Of a DNA stretch of 32,125 nt, positions 13,344-22,940 are shown piece by piece (within the stretch, counting starts at the first letter, position 1; each line of letters starts with the position of its first letter). This stretch comes from a virus (lineage: Duplodnaviria > Caudoviricetes). The position numbers and the translations under genes are program-made. The notes beneath the pieces are model-generated. The model saw nothing but the letters and a program-made list of their open reading frames with translations, ran no database searches and was not told where the DNA came from. The DNA lies in the IMG/VR virus record IMGVR_UViG_3300020045_018670, positions 1 to 32,125 of that record; one strand, given 5' to 3'.

Positions 13344-13898
13344 ATGAAAAAAATTATTTTAGGGTTATTAATATTTTTCAATTTATCTCTATACGGACAA
13401 GAATCTGAATTTGTATTTACAAAAGATGGCCTGACAGATTATGTGGTTACTCCAGCGCCAGGAAAAACACAAAATGAACTTTACAAAAAAGCATTAGAAT
13501 GGGTTTCTTATTTTTTCAAAGTACCTGGAGAAGTGATAAAGGCAAATGTTGAAAATGATTATATACGAATAGAAGGGTCAAGCAAGGATCTCATTTGTTA
13601 TAGTTATATGGGAAAAAGATGCGGAGATACTAAGTATGAAATAGAAATTTCATTTAAGGATGGCAAATACAAATTTGACGTGTTAAGCATATCAGAGTTC
13701 AACAACATTTCTAAATCTACTTCGTGGACCAATTTCGAAATCAATAACACGGCTTCTTATTTTGACAAAAAAGGAGAAGTGAAAAGCTCATATAAATTTA
13801 TTATTAAAACGGTTCCGGAATATTTCAATAGCATCAACTTAAACTTGAAGGATTTTTTAACCGGTGAAGTTGTTGCGAGTAAGAAAAACGATTGGTAA
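13344..13898 (+). CDS. Exported DUF4468-like protein
   Basis: Signal peptide MKKIILGLLIFFNLSLYG|Q; ELYKKALEWV and YEIEISFKDGKYK motifs. Confidence 0.75.
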   Translation: MKKIILGLLIFFNLSLYGQESEFVFTKDGLTDYVVTPAPGKTQNELYKKALEWVSYFFKVPGEVIKANVENDYIRIEGSSKDLICYSYMGKRCGDTKYEIEISFKDGKYKFDVLSISEFNNISKSTSWTNFEINNTASYFDKKGEVKSSYKFIIKTVPEYFNSINLNLKDFLTGEVVASKKNDW

Positions 13899-15676: not shown

Positions 15677-16279
15677 TTATTTCCCTTCAATATTTATGAT
15701 TTGGCTTTCGCCGCATTTGTCGGTTAACTTGACCGTGGCTTGTTTTTTGCCCAGGAAACGGGTTTTGATACCGAGGAAAGACCATTGTCGGCGTTCCCAG
15801 TAACCAATGGCCGTTGTGTTTCCGGTGAAAATCCTGTCGGTGATGTTCAGCCCCAATACACCGTTTTTATATTCAATAGTGCCTTTAATAACCAAACAGG
15901 AAGTACTGTCTTTTATGGGTAAAAGGATATTTTGTTTTGTATTTATAGCGGTCAAAACAGCGGACAAATCAGTATTGACAATGGTTGTGTCACGGTATTT
16001 TAATAAGTGATTCAGAACCGATGTCACTCGACTCAACTTGATGTTGTTTTCTTTCAGAATCTCTTTGTAAGCTTTGCTTTCGTTCAATGCCGTTGCCAGT
16101 TGGTCTTTTGTGTAAACCAGGTATTTCACGTTCAACGAATCGTATTTGGCATTGGCCAATTCATTGGCGATGGTGGTTTTTTTGAATTCGGCTTTATCAA
16201 AATAGTCTTTGGTAAACCAAATTCCGGCACAAACGGCGATCAATATAACCGCCCATTTTATGTAGTTTAAGTAATTCAT
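15677..16279 (-). CDS. Membrane-anchored lysis accessory protein (spanin-position, DUF6549-like)
   Basis: N-terminal TM helix, coiled coil, DTTIV, C-terminal RRQWSFLGIK..FLGKK; ATGA overlap with the endolysin. Confidence 0.65.
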   Translation of the reverse strand: MNYLNYIKWAVILIAVCAGIWFTKDYFDKAEFKKTTIANELANAKYDSLNVKYLVYTKDQLATALNESKAYKEILKENNIKLSRVTSVLNHLLKYRDTTIVNTDLSAVLTAINTKQNILLPIKDSTSCLVIKGTIEYKNGVLGLNITDRIFTGNTTAIGYWERRQWSFLGIKTRFLGKKQATVKLTDKCGESQIINIEGK

Positions 16280-16818
16280 ACGTATAGTTTTTCGGCTTTC
16301 GCCAATTTTAGATCATAATTCAAAAGCCAGTAGTTTTCTCCATTGTAGTAAAAGGCCACGACTTTCCAAACCCCGTTTACCAAGGCATTGAACATTTTTT
16401 TGTTGGACTTGATGAAAAGCAAACCCAATCTTAATTGGTTGTATTCAGAAACTTTGGCATAATCCCACATTTCGCCAACAGAATTGAAACCCAACAATTC
16501 CCAATGAAATCCCATTACTTGCATCATTCCAACCGAAGTGGCTTCCATTGCTGCATTGGGATTTTTGGCAAAAGCATCATTGAAGGCTTCCCATTCTTTT
16601 GCCTGGCGTTCTACTTTATTAAGAGACCATTTTCCCGATGGCGTGTAAGGTGATTTACGCTTGAACCAAACAGGCTCAAACTGGATGATTATCTTTCCGG
16701 TGAGATCATCAAAACCTTTACCACCGCTTTCGACGTGTTTAACGGCTTGAATTCTGGAAGTAGGAACTCCGAACTCAACCGCAAGGGATTGGATTTCCTG
16801 AAGGGTGATGGTTTTCAT
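16276..16818 (-). CDS. Endolysin, N-acetylmuramidase (DUF3380-type)
   Basis: AVKHVESGGKGF, IQFEP.WF, ATSVGMMQVMGFHW, YNG..Y...YD.KL motifs. Confidence 0.92.
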   Translation of the reverse strand: MKTITLQEIQSLAVEFGVPTSRIQAVKHVESGGKGFDDLTGKIIIQFEPVWFKRKSPYTPSGKWSLNKVERQAKEWEAFNDAFAKNPNAAMEATSVGMMQVMGFHWELLGFNSVGEMWDYAKVSEYNQLRLGLLFIKSNKKMFNALVNGVWKVVAFYYNGENYWLLNYDLKLAKAEKLYV

Positions 16819-16824
16819 AATTAA

Positions 16825-17265
16825 TTATTTTTCGATTATATCGGTAACACTTGTCTTTACTTCTTTGGCTCTGCCCAATGCTTTTTTGAGCAATGAAAAA
16901 ACATCCAATCCGGTGGCACCTTCGAAGTTTTCTTTTATGGAAACGCTTTCGATGAATATCAAGAGTAAGGCACATATTTTGGTGGCAAAAAAGGAGATGG
17001 AAAACCATTTTAAGAAGAACTCCGTCAAAATAAAGAAGTCGATTACATATAGACAGATAATACACATTTGATACAATAGCATTTTTGAAATAATTTCGCT
17101 CAATCTTCGACTGGTAACAAAATGCCACCCTTTTATTTTAATAGATCTATATATTCCAAAAAAAGTGTCCAAGAAAATAGCCGCTCCAACAGCAATCATC
17201 AATCCAGTGATTGGAGCGAAGAATATACAGGTGGCGGTTATTATGTAGATAGCGTATGATTTCAT
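16825..17265 (-). CDS. Holin (phage holin family 4-like)
   Basis: Three hydrophobic segments, FLDTFFGI, TSRRL, ESVSIKEN motifs, charged C-tail; start taken at ATG 17265. Confidence 0.85.
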   Translation of the reverse strand: MKSYAIYIITATCIFFAPITGLMIAVGAAIFLDTFFGIYRSIKIKGWHFVTSRRLSEIISKMLLYQMCIICLYVIDFFILTEFFLKWFSISFFATKICALLLIFIESVSIKENFEGATGLDVFSLLKKALGRAKEVKTSVTDIIEK

Positions 17266-17322
17266 AATTACTTTGTCGATTTTGGTTTTTAAATAAAGGC
17301 GCAATTGCTCACGCCTTTTGAA

Positions 17323-17580
17323 TTACTTTTTCCCAGGACTACCGAAAGTCACTCCATAATAAGCGAGAGCGGTTCCCAAGGCAGTCTGACCGATGCTGAC
17401 CCAATTGACCACCGTTTTGAATACCGAAAAATCAATAGTTCCGCTGGTAAGGAATTCAGTCACAACTGGACCAATTGCACCCCATACCAAAGCCAACAAT
17501 GCTCCAAACACGGCAAGTGCCAAGCCTTTAATTTTCTCCCTGTTGTTTAGGCTCCACAAGCCTGATAATGCTTCATTCAT
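17323..17580 (-). CDS. Small two-TM membrane protein (second holin or antiholin candidate)
   Basis: 85 aa, two hydrophobic helices, basic C-terminus, directly upstream of the holin. Confidence 0.65.
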   Translation of the reverse strand: MNEALSGLWSLNNREKIKGLALAVFGALLALVWGAIGPVVTEFLTSGTIDFSVFKTVVNWVSIGQTALGTALAYYGVTFGSPGKK

Positions 17581-17611: not shown

Positions 17612-18001
17612 CTATCTCGCTCTCCAATTATCTGTGTAAATTGAATCTGCTTGCAAATTCAATAACAACTTTTGTTGGAGCAAAAAACCCTCAATTTCAT
17701 CTTCTGGCATATTTGCGATTTGTTCAGCGAAAAGCAATCTCAATTGCGCTTCTTGTTCGTCATATTATTCAAAAGAAACGCTGTATTCCGTTGGCTTGAA
17801 TTCACCATCCCTATTTCGTAAAATAGAAATGCTTTCATCTTCTGTGTCAACATTATAAATAATGCTGTCAGTTGCTTCCAGATGCACCATTTTTGTGTCC
17901 GGGTCACGGTTTACCACACGCAAATCAATTTGTACGTGTTCTATTAATTTACCTCTTCGGTCATTGTGCAATTGCACTTTATCTACTGATATTGCTTTCA
18001 T
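17612..18001 (-). pseudogene. Hypothetical protein (fibre-chaperone position) interrupted by in-frame TAA at 17765-17767
   Basis: MKAISVDK...SVSFE*YDEQEAQLRLLFAEQIANMPEDEIEGFLLQQKLLLNLQADSIYTDNWRAR*; 50 more sense codons in frame fill the gap to the next gene. Confidence 0.7.
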
Positions 18002-18017
18002 ATTGTTGTATATTAAA

Positions 18018-19748
18018 TTACCAATTTTTTCGCCCTGCAATTGCTTCACTTAAATCTATTACAGAATGCAATGCAGAGACTTCGCTATCACTAAATCCCT
18101 CGTGAAATATTACTATTTGAAACCTCTGCATTGAAACGCCCCAAACACTGCCAACATTTTGAGCACCAATAAATATAGTATTACTGGCAAGGGTGCCTGG
18201 AGCTACCACACTTGTATTTTTTAAAACACCATTTTTAAATAATTTTGTTGACGAACTGGTTTGCCTAACTCCCGTTAATATTCCTTTTGCGTCAACAGCA
18301 TCAGTATAAGTAGTTTCATATTTTGTTGACGAATATGACTTTTGCCCTGTAGAAGATGTATTTCTAGGCGAAATAAACATACTTGATGTTTCGCTATTAT
18401 ATGCACCTACGTCTCTTGCATTTCCAGAAGTGCCTGTAACAATATTGTTCGTACCGCAAACAATTGTCAGCCCATTATTATTTAATGACATACTAGAACT
18501 TGGAGAAAAATACGAATTTGCATAAGCACCATATCCATCGCATTTATAACCTAAATTGCTAAATTTCCCATTGCCGTTAAAAGTCAATCTAAAAGCGGCA
18601 TTTGTATCAATAGGATTTTTTGAATTATATTTATGTTGTGCCGAAGTAGTACCCTTGAATGTATATATTGCGTGGCATTTTGTATATAATGAAATTGTTT
18701 TTAACCCTGTAATCAAAACGTATTCACTTTCTTGTTCTGCGCCTGTCAACCCCTTGGCAGAAATTGAGGCATTAGCATCTGTATCTGTATATGAGTAGTT
18801 TGATGTAGATTGAGTTATTGAATTTGAAACAAGCGATTTATTATAAAAAACATCTATTACATAAACAGTGATATTAGAAGAAGTATTGATTGGAACATTA
18901 GCCGCGTATCCTCCACTTGCTGTAATTTTATTACTAAATACACCATTAACATACACATCATAAAAATCAATAGCATTCGTGCTTCCGGTTGGTGCAGTAA
19001 AATTGGTTTGAATCGCTGTATTGTAAATTGTTCCAGATGATAAATCTGTAATAGGATTAGGAGCAACAGAGCTAGTCACATAAACGACATTCGCTCCCTG
19101 TGAAATCGCAGAAGTAATGTCTCCATCAGGAGATCCTGCGTTGTTAGTAGCTAAAGCAGGATTTGCATATATTTTTATTGAATTATATAAACTAATAAAA
19201 ACATTATTTGAAACTGAAGTACTTCCTAACGATGTACACGCAGGGATATATATACTTTCTAAATAGCCTGTAGAGTTTGAAAAAGCAGAATCTCCTATGG
19301 ATGTTGCGTTTTTTAAATTTATACGATTGATATAATAACAACTATCAAAAGAGGCAATTCCTACCGTTGTTGCATTCTGAAAATCCACAATTCCTGATAG
19401 TCCTGACAACTCAAAACAATGGTCTCCCAATGCCGTAACTAAATTATCGGTATCTCTATAGTATCTAATGGATGAATTGCTTTGAAAAGCACTAGCAGGA
19501 ATCGCATAACTCCCTGTAATCTTACACTTAATATCACTGCCGACAACGGTAAAATTTGAAATATTACCTACTGAAATTCCAAGTTTAGTTGCTAAAGATG
19601 AAGCAGTAGAAATAGTAGAAGCAACGCCACCAATATAGGTATTGTAAGTTATAGCGGCTTTATTTCCAAAATTCTGCCTTGCAAAAAGATTGTATTGGGC
19701 GTTTCCAAAAGTTGAAACCAATAATAAAATTAAGAGATACTTTTTCAT
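18018..19748 (-). CDS. Adhesin / receptor-binding-like protein with signal peptide (BspA-type LRR, FN3-like and LamG/ConA-like regions)
   Basis: MKKYLLILLLVSTFGNA|Q; repeats IPASAF, LGDHCF, VGIASF, IGDSAF; APNPITDL...YDVYVNG (FN3-like); TKLFKNG...IFIGA...SDSEV..L (LamG-like). Confidence 0.75.
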   Translation of the reverse strand: MKKYLLILLLVSTFGNAQYNLFARQNFGNKAAITYNTYIGGVASTISTASSLATKLGISVGNISNFTVVGSDIKCKITGSYAIPASAFQSNSSIRYYRDTDNLVTALGDHCFELSGLSGIVDFQNATTVGIASFDSCYYINRINLKNATSIGDSAFSNSTGYLESIYIPACTSLGSTSVSNNVFISLYNSIKIYANPALATNNAGSPDGDITSAISQGANVVYVTSSVAPNPITDLSSGTIYNTAIQTNFTAPTGSTNAIDFYDVYVNGVFSNKITASGGYAANVPINTSSNITVYVIDVFYNKSLVSNSITQSTSNYSYTDTDANASISAKGLTGAEQESEYVLITGLKTISLYTKCHAIYTFKGTTSAQHKYNSKNPIDTNAAFRLTFNGNGKFSNLGYKCDGYGAYANSYFSPSSSMSLNNNGLTIVCGTNNIVTGTSGNARDVGAYNSETSSMFISPRNTSSTGQKSYSSTKYETTYTDAVDAKGILTGVRQTSSSTKLFKNGVLKNTSVVAPGTLASNTIFIGAQNVGSVWGVSMQRFQIVIFHEGFSDSEVSALHSVIDLSEAIAGRKNW

Positions 19749-21163
19749 AGTGAGCCTGCGGTTAAATATTCATTTGAAGTTCCTGTATTTACAATTGTGT
19801 GCGATAGTTTTTCCGCCATTGTTGTTCCTACGTTGTTAATCAAAGTCACGGAACCACCCAAGGCATAAGTCATTGTAACGCCAGCTTGCGTTTCAAACGA
19901 AACATTAAAACCACTCATCAATCCGTTTGGTAAAGTGACGGTGCAGGATGCCGTGAGCAGAATTACTGTACCGTTATCAGAATTGGCAAGGGTTGTATTC
20001 GATGATATTTTACGAACAGTTAAAACAGCGTTTGCTTTTAAATCCAGTGCTGTTTGCTGTGCAGTTGAAACTGGTTTTGCGGTGTCGCTGGTATTGTCCA
20101 CATTCGACAAACCAACCATTGTTTTTGTAATTCCAGACACCGTTCCCGTAAACGTTGGAGAAGCCAAAGGAGCTTTCAAACCTAAATCAGTAACCAAATT
20201 AGTCACCTGGCTTTCTGCAATATTTGGAATATCACCAGCAGTTAACGAAGTTCCCGAAGTGATTAATCCTTTGGAATCATAGGTTATCTTGGTATTTGTG
20301 GCTCCAGTTATGGACGTATTTTTGTCCACTTTTAGAGCCAAAGCATCATAAACTATATCTTCAGATGGAGAATAGTTTGTTTCGCCATTTCGCAAAGCTT
20401 GTGAAACCTGGTTCTTTGGTTTTGGTGATCCTGGTGTCGATGCTGCCGAATCGGTAACTACAAACAAAATCTGAATAGTGTTTGTTGGAACAGCTGGTGA
20501 AACAGGCGTTCCGGTAGTTTCCGTACCTGCAATACGAACAGCCGTGTTCGAAGCATTTAAAACAATCAAGTCAATTCGTTGATAGCCACTCGCTGCCAAA
20601 GGAATATTGATGGTTATTGGCGAAGCGTTCGTTTTATCGACGTTGTTAATTTTCCACGCCCAGCCTGCATTGATGGTGATGTCTTGAACGACTTGGCTAT
20701 ATCCAGCATCCGTAACGACATAAGTGTTGGGATTGATTTGGCTTTTCAGAATGTCCAGTTCCGCATTCACACCGTCAACCGTTGGGAACTTCGTGGCTGT
20801 ACCGTCAGTTGCTAAACTGTTTTGTTTATTGGCCGTGTCTTCTTTTCCTGAAATATCACCACCACCGCCAGAAATCAGGGTGTAAACAGTACCGTTCCAT
20901 CTGTAAAGTTTATTATCGTCTTTTGTTAGATAAATTTTAGCATCAGTTCCAGTAACTGGCAAAGCAGAAGCCGTGGCATATTCGATATAATCGATTAGAT
21001 CAGCTTTGGCAATGGTGTTAACTTCGCCATTGGTTTCTTGGACATTTACTTTTGTGGCTGTCGTGCTTGTGGTGTTACCCGTGATTTTTATCTTGGTAAA
21101 AGGTGTCGGGTTTTGTCCGTATAACGAAACCGAAAGCAGTAATAATAAGATGTATTTTTTCAT
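19745..21163 (-). CDS. Tail-fibre-like protein with signal peptide
   Basis: MKKYILLLLLSVSLYG|Q; fibre motifs TKITYDSKGLITSG, KAPLASPTFTG, VGLSNVDNTSDTAKPVSTAQQTALDLKA; Thr/Ser/Gly-rich. Confidence 0.8.
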   Translation of the reverse strand: MKKYILLLLLSVSLYGQNPTPFTKIKITGNTTSTTATKVNVQETNGEVNTIAKADLIDYIEYATASALPVTGTDAKIYLTKDDNKLYRWNGTVYTLISGGGGDISGKEDTANKQNSLATDGTATKFPTVDGVNAELDILKSQINPNTYVVTDAGYSQVVQDITINAGWAWKINNVDKTNASPITINIPLAASGYQRIDLIVLNASNTAVRIAGTETTGTPVSPAVPTNTIQILFVVTDSAASTPGSPKPKNQVSQALRNGETNYSPSEDIVYDALALKVDKNTSITGATNTKITYDSKGLITSGTSLTAGDIPNIAESQVTNLVTDLGLKAPLASPTFTGTVSGITKTMVGLSNVDNTSDTAKPVSTAQQTALDLKANAVLTVRKISSNTTLANSDNGTVILLTASCTVTLPNGLMSGFNVSFETQAGVTMTYALGGSVTLINNVGTTMAEKLSHTIVNTGTSNEYLTAGSL

Positions 21164-21169
21164 AGTGTT

Positions 21170-22003
21170 TTAGTTTGATCCTGTGATGTAAATGGTGTCT
21201 CCAGCTTCGAGTGTCAATAAGATAATTTCAATTTCGGTTGGTGAGTTTCTTTGCCAATGTGTGGTTTTGAATAAAACCCGACCTTCGCCAAGTGTCACGC
21301 TCATAATTTTTAGACCATCCGGAACCGTGAATTTTTGATCTCCTGATGCGTAGGTGAATAGGTTGGCGTATTCGTTTGATGAAATAGCGCTTTCGAGCGT
21401 AGTTATTCTGTTATCCAATAATCCAGCATCACCTGTGTAAGCGCCTTTGTCGAGTTTGTATGCTAAATCTTGGAGGGTAACTGGCGGTGTGGGTGTTCCT
21501 ATTGTAGTATCGTCAACATCAATTTCAGTTACCAAAATAGATCCAATTGGCACGTTTGGTCTGATTCGTATCGTTTCAGATTCATCGCCTTTGATCAACA
21601 CGATTTGGTTTGATTGGTTGGCCACCAAAATATCTTTCCTCAAATGATCAGCAGCGCACAATGTTTCCGTGATATTTGTATCGGCAATTGTTCCGTAATG
21701 AATTCCTTCATAAACCCATTTGGCATTGGCAGGAACCGTAACCACCAAACCTGCAACGGTAATGTCGCCAACCTCCAATAAGTGACTGAACATTTTATCG
21801 ACAATGGCATCAATGATTTTTTGAACCTCTAAACTTTCGGATACTGGACCGGAAACTCCATCCCTGGAAACGTGGATTAATGAAGTTGGATTGAGTGTTA
21901 ATTGACGTGGAAGTTCAAATATCCTCTTGGCATTTATAACCAACGCGTTATATTTTGCAGTAAGATCTTCCAATCTTTCGGTTACAAATGTTTGAAAACT
22001 CAT
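21170..22003 (-). CDS. Tail fibre anchor/adapter-like protein (no signal peptide)
   Basis: AKRIFELP N-terminal motif; RKDILV docking-like domain shared with the next gene; start taken at ATG 22003 (MSFQTF). Confidence 0.65.
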   Translation of the reverse strand: MSFQTFVTERLEDLTAKYNALVINAKRIFELPRQLTLNPTSLIHVSRDGVSGPVSESLEVQKIIDAIVDKMFSHLLEVGDITVAGLVVTVPANAKWVYEGIHYGTIADTNITETLCAADHLRKDILVANQSNQIVLIKGDESETIRIRPNVPIGSILVTEIDVDDTTIGTPTPPVTLQDLAYKLDKGAYTGDAGLLDNRITTLESAISSNEYANLFTYASGDQKFTVPDGLKIMSVTLGEGRVLFKTTHWQRNSPTEIEIILLTLEAGDTIYITGSN

Positions 22004-22024: not shown

Positions 22025-22032
22025 CAAATGTA
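22025..22032 (-). promoter_or_regulatory. Bacteroidota -7 promoter element for the fibre module
   Basis: TACATTTG on the - strand (consensus TAnnTTTG), 21 nt upstream of ATG 22003; no clear -33 TTG. Confidence 0.55.
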
Positions 22033-22067: not shown

Positions 22068-22100
22068 TGAATATTGGAAATAGTTTGCATTGTTATTTTG

Positions 22101-22108
22101 TAACTTTG
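22101..22108 (+). promoter_or_regulatory. Bacteroidota -7 promoter element for the moron
   Basis: TAACTTTG, 5 nt upstream of ATG 22114 (near-leaderless). Confidence 0.55.
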
Positions 22109-22113
22109 TGATT

Positions 22114-22335
22114 ATGGTCTTATTACTGTTTATTCTTGTATTATTTGTCGTGTTTGTGGGCGGTGGATGGCTTATTGGAAAGGCGTTCGGCAATCTCTTG
22201 TTTCCTAAAGAAAAAAAAGACACCTACACTTTTATTGACAAATCGGTTCATCATCATTACCACGAGCACAAGAATATTTCCATCATTGACGATGCAACCA
22301 AAAAGAAGATCTTCGAACTTAAAGACAAGAATTAA
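22114..22335 (+). CDS. Small membrane-anchored protein with His cluster (moron gene 1)
   Basis: N-terminal TM helix MVLLLFILVLFVVFVGGGWLIG, then VHHHYHEH. Confidence 0.7.
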   Translation: MVLLLFILVLFVVFVGGGWLIGKAFGNLLFPKEKKDTYTFIDKSVHHHYHEHKNISIIDDATKKKIFELKDKN

Positions 22336-22598
22336 TGGAAAACATAAAATTTTACTTCATAATCATAAAGCTATTCCTGAAAGGTTTTAGTGTTTCCGAA
22401 ATTCAAAAAGTAATTGAAGACTATAAGTATAAAACAATGATGCTTGAATTTAGATCCAATGCTTTGTGTTTTGGTTTTGACACTTCAACTTATTCCGATG
22501 ATGAACTTTTGAAAAGTGCAGGTATTGCTTCCAAAGAAATTGCAAAATGTGGAGTGACTGCTGAAGAATTAACCAAAGCATTTAAAGCGTTTAAATAA
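22335..22598 (+). CDS. Hypothetical protein (moron gene 2)
   Basis: 87 aa, TAATG-coupled to gene 1. Confidence 0.65.
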   Translation: MENIKFYFIIIKLFLKGFSVSEIQKVIEDYKYKTMMLEFRSNALCFGFDTSTYSDDELLKSAGIASKEIAKCGVTAEELTKAFKAFK

Positions 22599-22616
22599 AT
22601 TAAAGGAAAGCAAGGA

Positions 22617-22844
22617 ATGAAATACTACTTTGTAAAATCAATAGATTTGCCATTTGTAAAAGAATGGAGTATTTATAATGATTGGATTTCTACTGATAGA
22701 ACCCTTTTAATAGAAATGGTTAGAAAAAATTTAGAATCAGAAGTACTACTCGAACCTACAACGATTAATGAAAATGAAGGTTGGTTATTAGTTAATGGCA
22801 GCAAAGAAAAATGGTTGAAAATATGTGAATTAGAGCAAATATAA
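22617..22844 (+). CDS. Hypothetical protein (moron gene 3)
   Basis: 75 aa, followed by terminator hairpins. Confidence 0.6.
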   Translation: MKYYFVKSIDLPFVKEWSIYNDWISTDRTLLIEMVRKNLESEVLLEPTTINENEGWLLVNGSKEKWLKICELEQI

Positions 22845-22847
22845 ATT

Positions 22848-22874
22848 AAAAAAGCCTCCAATTAAGGAAGCTTT
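22848..22874 (-). terminator. Intrinsic terminator (- strand)
   Basis: - strand AAAGCTTCC-TTAATT-GGAGGCTTT then further T residues; one U-G pair. Confidence 0.65.
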
Positions 22875-22907
22875 CAAGTTGATCATTCATTCGAATGAAA
22901 CAAATCT

Positions 22908-22940
22908 AAAAACGGATAGCCCTGAAGTTATCCGTTTTTT
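22908..22940. terminator. Bidirectional terminator between tail operon and moron
   Basis: AAAAACGGATAGC-CCTGAA-GTTATCCGTTTTTT, 5 nt after the stop of 22946..24949. Confidence 0.75.

What the first reader, a model, noticed from the sequence alone, without database searches (positions are those of the whole stretch)
18018..21163. Tail fibre and adhesin pair that both carry Sec signal peptides: a possible exported receptor-binding system
Seen: two ATGA-coupled genes in the receptor-binding position, between tail-tip and lysis genes, start MKKYILLLLLSVSLYG|Q and MKKYLLILLLVSTFGNA|Q. Neither has a nearby downstream Met that would skip the leader, a lipobox Cys, or a recognisable T9SS C-terminal domain. 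The 472-aa protein carries typical fibre repeats (KAPLASPTFTG, GLSNVDNTSD..KPVSTAQQTALDLKA); the 576-aa protein has LRR, FN3-like and LamG-like regions. Established: virions assemble in the cytoplasm, so fibres normally lack signal peptides, and cleavage before Gln is typical of Bacteroidota SPI substrates. Inference: the pair is exported to the periplasm and either joins virions only at or after lysis, or serves the lysogen as a receptor-blocking or adhesive factor derived from a fibre.
Basis: partly seen in the sequence, partly recalled or inferred. Interest (0 to 1): 0.85.

Follow-up and report, generated by a model that had tools for sequence, protein, structure and literature searches.

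The report
Split phage fibre with export signals
A phage that likely infects Flavobacterium splits its tail fibre into a signal-less anchor piece and two outer pieces carrying predicted host secretion signals, so its host-recognition tip likely matures outside the cytoplasm and would plug onto the particle only at lysis, a route I found in no paper.

Summary
Confirmed, with a missing third part. Both genes start with Bacteroidota-type signal peptides (cut before Gln; rule-based, no SignalP). The gene just upstream (21170-22003) is the fibre's signal-less inner piece. Close relatives L151, L155 and L039 carry one signal-less fibre made of this piece's N-terminus plus our fibre's C-terminal domain. 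In our phage the inner piece instead ends in a 65-aa domain resembling XD domains, on which CBA120 and T4 dock partner trimers. Among 68 related fibres, all 20 with a signal have such a capped stump nearby; none of 48 without one does (18 of the 20 share one dataset). The adhesin's signal sits directly before the peptide that begins signal-less relatives; its nearest relative (79%) has no signal. In cultured Cellulophaga phages phi10:1 and phi18:3, comparable signal-bearing genes are annotated as MS/MS-supported structural proteins. Best model (0.62): fibre and adhesin are Sec-exported, mature in the periplasm and dock on the virion stump at lysis. This scan reported signal-bearing fibres before on other genomes (eight notes, one split).

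The parts
22025..22032 (-). TACATTTG, a Bacteroidota -7 type promoter element (consensus TAnnTTTG, recalled) about 22-29 nt before the stump ATG; it overlaps the TTG that the ORF tool takes as start
   Evidence: the same octamer lies 26-30 nt before the first fibre gene in L179, L039, L151 and L155; the pattern is not enriched window-wide (33 found vs 40 expected)
21170..22003 (-). Stump: signal-less proximal fibre piece (277 aa from Met9 of the listed ORF), predicted to be virion-anchored
   Evidence: 51-52% identical over 175 aa to the N-termini of single signal-less fibres in L151 and L155, and 37% over 286 to L039; no signal by rule
21173..21382 (-). XD-like beta-sandwich cap at the stump C-terminus, the predicted docking site
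   Evidence: family profile hits 9k4a at E 3e-8 and 9d80 at E 0.013; model pLDDT 94; Z 8.5, rmsd 1.8, 64 aligned to CBA120 TSP4 residues 187-250
21116..21163 (-). Predicted Sec/SPI signal peptide of the distal fibre (16 aa, then Gln17)
   Evidence: sequence; 15 of 15 homologues of this N-terminus have signal+Gln
19745..21163 (-). Distal fibre, 472 aa: mature N-terminal segment, fibre repeats, C-terminal domain
   Evidence: PHROG tail-fibre matches; alignment of mature N-termini
19748..20032 (-). Fibre C-terminal domain, the predicted adhesin-binding end
   Evidence: 67-71% identical to the C-termini of the signal-less fibres of L151 and L155; its class co-varies with the adhesin N-peptide class; common phage fibre-end domain
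19698..19748 (-). Predicted Sec/SPI signal peptide of the adhesin (17 aa, then Gln18)
   Evidence: sequence; 29 of 120 listed family members carry signal+Gln
19668..19697 (-). Mature N-terminal peptide QYNLFARQNF, counterpart of the first residues of signal-less adhesins; predicted to plug into the fibre end
18018..19748 (-). Adhesin, 576 aa: BspA-type LRR (81-181), FN3 (about 228-318), LamG/ConA-like lectin domain (about 320-576)
   Evidence: 79% identical over 550 aa to signal-less P0122
17765..18001 (-). Small signal-less gene that travels with the cassette in both signal-bearing and signal-less loci; role unknown
   Evidence: 22 locus genes match it, duplicates included
16276..17304 (-). 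Holin (Phage_holin_4_1) and N-acetylmuramidase endolysin, the lysis step at which the two compartments would mix

Best explanation
The tail fibre is split into a signal-less stump and a distal fibre plus tip adhesin with predicted Sec signal peptides, which are likely exported, cut before Gln and assembled in the periplasm, and would dock onto the stump's XD-like cap on finished virions only when lysis mixes the compartments. Shown from sequence: the split, the signals, their co-occurrence, and the fused signal-less form in close relatives. Predicted: the XD-like fold of the cap. Inferred: Sec export, cleavage and pyroglutamate formation (established for Bacteroidota SPI substrates in general), adhesin peptide binding the fibre end, fibre N-terminus binding the cap, and the timing at lysis. 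The likely benefit, inferred weakly, is that receptor-binding parts stay off the particle until release, and a periplasmic surplus covers receptors on the debris of the dying cell.
For: (1) Fused form: L151, L155 and L039 share the upstream 667-aa tail gene (57-66%) and carry one signal-less fibre whose N-terminus matches our stump and whose C-terminus matches our fibre end. (2) Of 68 distinct fibres with this C-domain, 20 have a signal; 19 of 20 have a capped stump within four genes and the twentieth has one 1.7 kb upstream; 0 of 48 signal-less fibres have one within four genes. The next gene has a signal in 17 of 17 scorable cases against 0 of 48. (3) Whole-record search: the cap is found in 3 of 5 records, the three signal-bearing ones, and not in G004 (100% complete) or G005. 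An independent prophage in genome G191 has the same split layout. (4) The cap resembles XD domains, which bind partner trimers in CBA120 TSP4 and T4 gp10 (PMC8825819, abstract and passages). Stumps of L007 and L021 begin with the baseplate fibre-connector domain phrog_677. (5) The adhesin peptide class follows the fibre-end class: 31 of 31 EK-type ends go with ARQ/WQ-type peptides (16 with signal, 15 without), and 22 of 23 RRG-type ends with the other class. (6) The nearest adhesin relative, 79% identical, has no signal; the label changes 21 times on a quick tree, at least 9 forced. (7) Cellulophaga phage phi10:1 has a 116-aa signal-less gp090 followed by gp091-094 with signal+Gln, all annotated 'structural protein, experimental MS/MS'. 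Its gp087-089 are 34-52% identical to tail genes of the split-fibre loci L017, L140 and L164. phi18:3 gp085-087 are annotated likewise.
Against: No SignalP run, and no data on export, cleavage or virion content for this phage. 18 of the 20 signal-bearing fibres share one IMG/VR dataset number, so the counts are not independent. The cap profiles were built from these same stumps, so the positives are circular; only the 0 of 48 is not. Peptide and fibre-end classes were defined by eye after seeing the data. The XD match is a middling Z, tied with a DT57C neck protein (9.2) and other phage beta-sandwiches, and Foldseek gave nothing at E <= 0.001. phi10:1 gp090-095 did not match my stump, fibre or adhesin profiles, so phi10:1 is a parallel case, not a homologue of the pair. 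I could not read the paper behind the MS annotation; that it used purified particles is recalled, and co-purified free fibres are not excluded. L104 has a signal-bearing adhesin after a gene with no signal. No reason for export shows in sequence: cysteine counts are equal (5.3 vs 5.7, p 0.33) and glycosylation motifs are not enriched.
Confidence: 0.62

Rival explanations
1. The exported fibre-adhesin complex never joins the virion; released at lysis, it acts as a soluble receptor mask or decoy, while the virion adsorbs through the tail tip and the stump.
For: Export separates the pair from the site of assembly; an exported receptor blocker has precedent in the T5 lipoprotein Llp (recalled).
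Against: The stump has no receptor-binding domain and ends in a docking-type fold. Stump and signal co-occur 20 of 20 against 0 of 48. Comparable proteins are MS-supported structural proteins.
Confidence: 0.13
2. The pair is a lysogen-expressed periplasmic or surface factor (adhesion or superinfection exclusion) derived from a fibre.
For: The phage has an integrase and repressor. A conserved TACATTTG element lies before the cassette, and TATATTTG lies directly before the signal-bearing fibre in L017, L140 and L146. Bacteroidota prophages carry Q-rule genes proposed to modify the host surface (PMC10367356 passage).
Against: The same element precedes signal-less fibres. No terminator-like site was found between adhesin and holin on that strand. 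There is no T9SS domain or lipobox to reach the surface. phi10:1 and phi18:3 counterparts are annotated structural.
Confidence: 0.1
3. The leaders are not used for export: they are uncleaved membrane tethers or hydrophobic assembly peptides, or are bypassed by an internal start, and assembly stays cytoplasmic.
For: About three quarters of adhesin homologues work without a leader. There is an in-frame TTG at adhesin codon 10. No experiment shows export.
Against: Gln follows a small residue right after the hydrophobic core in 29 of 29 adhesins and 20 of 20 fibres, the Bacteroidota SPI signature (PMC5837995 abstract). The leader resembles that of the phage's own DUF4468 gene. The fibre has no alternative start before codon 68.
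Confidence: 0.1

Closest known systems
Branched receptor-binding complexes built on XD domains: CBA120 TSP4/TSP2, G7C gp66-gp63.1, T4 gp10 (PMC8825819)
   Same: A virion-anchored protein presents a small beta-jellyroll domain on which a separately made trimer docks; the stump cap resembles TSP4 XD2 and XD3 (Z 8.5 and 7.4).
   Different: Here the anchor has one cap and no receptor-binding body, and the partner is a fibre with a predicted Sec signal; the known partners are tailspikes assembled in the cytoplasm (recalled).
Multi-part fibres with a tip adhesin: T4 gp34-gp37, T2/S16 gp37-gp38 (recalled)
   Same: Proximal and distal pieces join end to end; a separate adhesin sits at the fibre C-terminus by its N-terminal segment.
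   Different: The adhesin is LRR-FN3-LamG rather than glycine-rich gp38; no signal peptides are known to me in those systems.
Cellulophaga phages phi10:1 (gp090, gp091-094) and phi18:3 (gp085-087)
   Same: Fibre-region genes with signal+Gln, annotated as MS/MS-supported structural proteins; phi10:1 has a short signal-less gene in the stump position.
   Different: No detectable homology to our pair or cap by my profiles; four or five exported genes instead of two; the record notes I saw do not mention the signals.
Signal-less single fibres of close relatives (L151, L155, L039)
   Same: Same tail gene upstream, same fibre N- and C-termini, same promoter element.
   Different: One unsplit gene, no cap domain, no signal on fibre or (where present in the locus) adhesin.
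Porphyromonas gingivalis prophage Q-rule genes (PMC10367356)
   Same: Phage genes with Bacteroidota signal+Gln leaders.
   Different: Of unknown function and read there as possible outer-membrane modifiers; not linked to fibres in the passages I saw.

Membership tests
Bacteroidota Sec/SPI (Q-rule) substrate | Basic n-region, hydrophobic core, small residue at -1 | tested here: met
   MKK, 7-8 hydrophobic residues, G or A at -1; rule flags 3 of 39 window genes
Bacteroidota Sec/SPI (Q-rule) substrate | Gln at +1, conserved | tested here: met
   29 of 29 adhesins, 20 of 20 locus fibres, 15 of 15 fibre N-terminus homologues
Bacteroidota Sec/SPI (Q-rule) substrate | SignalP call; actual export, cleavage and pyroglutamate | not testable with these tools
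   no predictor or proteomics for this phage
T9SS cargo | C-terminal sorting domain | tested here: not met
   no such family in Pfam or NCBIfam; the C-termini are the fibre-end and lectin domains
Lipoprotein / type V pilin | Lipobox cysteine after the signal | tested here: not met
   first Cys at residue 407 (fibre) and 75 (adhesin)
XD-domain docking platform (TSP4, gp66, gp10) | About 65-aa beta-jellyroll XD fold | tested here: inconclusive
   profile E 3e-8 to 9k4a; Z 8.5 to TSP4 187-250 but tied with other phage sandwiches
XD-domain docking platform (TSP4, gp66, gp10) | Trimer binds the N-terminal head of a partner trimer | not tested
XD-domain docking platform (TSP4, gp66, gp10) | Virion-anchoring N-terminal region on the same chain | tested here: met
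   stump N-terminus matches that of unsplit fibres; phrog_677 in the stumps of L007 and L021
gp37-gp38 type fibre-adhesin pair | Adhesin N-terminal segment binds the fibre C-terminal domain | tested here: inconclusive
   class co-variation 31 of 31 and 22 of 23, classes set by eye
gp37-gp38 type fibre-adhesin pair | Glycine-rich gp38 adhesin fold | tested here: not met
   LRR, FN3 and ConA/LamG-like domains instead
Moron (lysogenic conversion gene) | Own promoter and terminator, independent of the late operon | tested here: inconclusive
   promoter-like element present but shared with signal-less forms; no terminator-like site before the holin

The most novel reading that the evidence does not exclude
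A two-compartment assembly pathway for tailed phages: heads, tails and a capped fibre stump are built in the cytoplasm, the whole receptor-binding arm is Sec-exported and built in the periplasm, and particles are armed only as the cell bursts. The signal-plus-cap module is swapped in and out among Flavobacterium phages with different tail types.
Probability: 0.55. Interest if true: 0.92.

Novelty: categorically new. Interest (0 to 1): 0.82.

Why it matters
Tailed-phage particles are taken to be complete in the cytoplasm before lysis. Receptor-binding parts that mature in the periplasm and join at lysis would be a new step in morphogenesis. It would make host Sec, signal peptidase and glutaminyl cyclase requirements for infectivity, and would allow arms from co-infecting or resident phages to be exchanged at release. 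This locus makes the question testable: split and unsplit versions exist in close relatives, the docking parts are small and named, and a cultured phage (phi10:1) shows a parallel layout. The parts themselves are of known kinds; the novelty is the route.

Tried and rejected
Complex prediction of stump cap with mature fibre N-terminus was not available, so binding has no structural verdict. Read-through of the stump stop into the fibre: in frame here (6-nt gap) but in only 7 of 22 split loci, as chance gives; rejected. Export for disulphide formation: adhesin cysteines 5.3 (n=19) vs 5.7 (n=87), p 0.33, fibre cysteines 0.45 vs 0.41 per 100 aa; rejected. Export for O-glycosylation (motif D[ST][ALVIMT], recalled): below shuffled expectation in both groups, 17 vs 62 expected with signal and 62 vs 145 without; rejected, and the stronger depletion is only a hint. 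Cultured phages with this stump: tblastn gave no match and one irrelevant repeat hit; laban6-1 and FL-1, hit by parts of the pair, have signal-less genes there. The single-sequence viral scan found nothing. The whole-fibre homologue search returned mostly repeat matches. The fibre C-domain has no solved relative by sequence. The careful tree did not finish; only the quick tree is used. Neurotoxin and sialidase rows reflect the generic lectin fold and were not followed. Ten paper searches found no description of Sec-exported fibres of tailed phages; the library lacks most subscription journals, the Cellulophaga genome paper was not held, and no supplements were read, so a remark there could have been missed.
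Full report
Setting. The window is a 32,125-base virus record of a temperate, long-tailed phage: integrase, repressor, RecT and helicase on one side; tape measure, two virion proteins, holin and muramidase on the other. The host is inferred to be Flavobacterium from relatives of the adhesin in seven Flavobacterium or Flavobacteriales genome loci and a syntenic prophage in a genome of that genus.

Observation. Both genes, their ATGA overlap and their leaders are as described. The next methionines are residues 349 and 420; the only near alternative start is a TTG at adhesin codon 10. SignalP was not available, so I used a rule (basic n-region, hydrophobic 7-mer, small residue then Gln). It flags 3 of 39 window genes: these two and the DUF4468 gene beside the repressor. 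Gln at +1 is the signature of Bacteroidota signal peptidase I substrates (PMC5837995, abstract). No T9SS domain or lipobox was found. The adhesin has LRR_5 at 81-181; its model (pLDDT 92) matches FN3 and ConA/LamG-like folds.

The leader is an add-on. The adhesin search found 287 proteins and listed 120, query included. The rule flagged 30; I dropped P0166 by eye as a false call, leaving 29, all with Gln. In these 29 the Gln lies 17-20 residues before the conserved NTxIGG motif. In 66 of 88 signal-less members the start Met lies 9-20 residues before it, and in 22 it lies 33-36 before; three fragments lacked the motif. Fourteen signal-less members begin MNLxARQ-like, the counterpart of QYNLFARQ. 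The nearest relative, 79% identical over 550 aa, has no signal. On a quick tree of 117 rows the label needs 21 changes, at least 9 forced by strong branches, against 26 for shuffles (the careful tree did not finish). The same body is therefore used with and without a signal. For the fibre, all 15 homologues of residues 1-105 begin with signal+Gln (read by eye).

The fibre is split. The gene upstream (ATG at 22003) has no signal. Three close relatives, L151, L155 and L039, share the 667-aa tail gene at 57-66% and have a single signal-less fibre. Its N-terminus matches our upstream gene (51-52% over 175 aa; 37% over 286) and its C-terminus matches our fibre end (71%, 67%, 34%). So stump plus distal fibre together stand where one fibre stands in the relatives. 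The stump ends in a 65-aa domain that a profile search finds mostly at the C-termini of short proteins with varied virion-type N-termini (137 hits; 1 of the 120 under 620 aa flagged for a signal). A second cap type occurs in four loci.

Co-occurrence. From 137 adhesin loci and 39 fibre-end loci I took 68 distinct fibres with this C-domain, the window's included. Twenty have a signal: 19 have a capped stump within four genes and L146 has one 1.7 kb upstream. None of the 48 signal-less fibres has one within four genes. The next gene carries a signal in 17 of 17 scorable cases (three lie at contig ends) and in 0 of 48. A whole-record search found the cap in the three signal-bearing records and not in the two signal-less ones, one of them 100% complete. 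In 401 genomes of the genus, 2 matched; one, L179, repeats our layout. Limits: 18 of the 20 share one IMG/VR dataset number, although they differ in neighbouring tail genes (baseplate wedge in L002, portal in L001, phi10:1-like tail in L017, L140 and L164). The cap profiles were built from these stumps. L104 has a signal-bearing adhesin after a signal-less gene near a contig end.

What the cap is. Its family profile matches the N-terminal region of a K1 depolymerase (9k4a, E 3e-8) and a tail fibre (9d80, E 0.013). Its model (pLDDT 94) aligns to CBA120 TSP4 residues 187-250 (Z 8.5, rmsd 1.8, 64 residues) and 265-333 (Z 7.4), but equally to a DT57C neck protein (Z 9.2) and other phage sandwiches; Foldseek found nothing at E <= 0.001. 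In CBA120 and T4, XD2 and XD3 trimers are binding sites for other trimeric tail proteins (PMC8825819, abstract and passages). That these TSP4 ranges are XD2 and XD3 rests on my recall and on the paper's construct names.

Fibre to adhesin. The class of the adhesin's first peptide follows the class of the fibre end: 31 of 31 EK-type ends go with ARQ/WQ-type peptides (16 with signal, 15 without); 22 of 23 RRG-type ends go with the KK..FG/QNT.FG class; 10 others were unclassed (classes set by eye). In signal-bearing forms this peptide lies directly behind the cleavage site.

Cultured parallels. Following leads from earlier scan notes, I fetched Cellulophaga phage phi10:1: a 116-aa signal-less gp090 is followed by gp091-094, each with signal+Gln, and all five are annotated 'structural protein; experimental MS/MS proteomics analysis'. 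Its gp087-089 are 34-52% identical to tail genes of split-fibre loci. phi18:3 gp085-087 have signals and the same annotation. These proteins did not match my profiles, so they are parallels. The source paper was not held; that purified particles were analysed is recalled.

Mechanism. Most likely (0.62) the stump is built into the tail in the cytoplasm; fibre and adhesin go through Sec, are cut before Gln and assemble in the periplasm; at lysis the arm docks on the cap. Spontaneous attachment of fibres or spikes to finished particles is known for T4 and P22 in vitro (recalled). Rivals: a soluble receptor mask that never joins (0.13), a lysogen factor (0.10), leaders not used for export (0.10). 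A TACATTTG element before the cassette is conserved in four relatives, with and without signals; no terminator-like site separates adhesin from holin. Cysteine and glycosylation tests gave no reason for export. Read-through from stump to fibre is rejected.

Literature and novelty. Ten searches found no account of Sec-exported fibres in tailed phages. Read as passages: PMC10367356 (Q-rule prophage genes of unknown function), PMC5723332, 10.1101/2024.11.15.621889, PMC13288928, PMC8776804 (no mention of signal peptides). No supplements were read. This scan has noted signal-bearing fibres on other genomes (eight notes); look-ups by sequence, by relatives and by narrower words found none for this locus. 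The parts are of known kinds; the two-compartment route would be new. Interest 0.82.

Noticed in passing
window 13344-13898 +: DUF4468 gene with its own signal+Gln leader beside the repressor and integrase; a likely lysogen-expressed periplasmic protein, and a positive control for the signal rule.
   Followed up: partly
window 22090-22844 +: Three small genes on the opposite strand interrupt the late region between the tail gene and the stump, with terminator-like hairpins at 22850-22939; the first has a similar small membrane ORF at the same place in L179.
   Followed up: partly
window 17765-18001 -: Small signal-less gene present in both kinds of locus, between fibre and adhesin in some signal-less ones; if it is a fibre chaperone, its substrate in the exporting phages is unexplained.
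   Followed up: partly
window 17323-17580 - and 15677-16279 -: An 85-aa two-helix membrane protein before the holin, and a 200-aa N-anchored protein after the endolysin (spanin-like position); no confident family match.
   Followed up: no
window 20420-20690 - (fibre residues about 160-247): The distal fibre carries a second copy of a domain also present in the stump and in the N-terminal part of the unsplit fibres.
   Followed up: partly
L053:514-2177, L054:3528-9196: Flavobacterium genome loci with alternating signal-less 290-aa genes and signal-bearing fibres next to an endolysin-like gene and unsplit fibre-adhesin pairs; prophage remnant or tailocin-like cluster.
   Followed up: no
L055:6994-14702, L173, L174: Tandem arrays of short fibre plus adhesin pairs, three or more in a row, suggesting interchangeable tips.
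   Followed up: no
L017, L140, L146 (stump to fibre gap 1.7-1.9 kb): Inserted genes separate stump and signal-bearing fibre, and a TATATTTG element sits 23 nt before the fibre start in all three.
   Followed up: partly
P0020, P0036, P0062, P0110: Signal-bearing proteins that share the fibre repeat and look like cellular Bacteroidota proteins; a possible reservoir of exported fibre modules.
   Followed up: no
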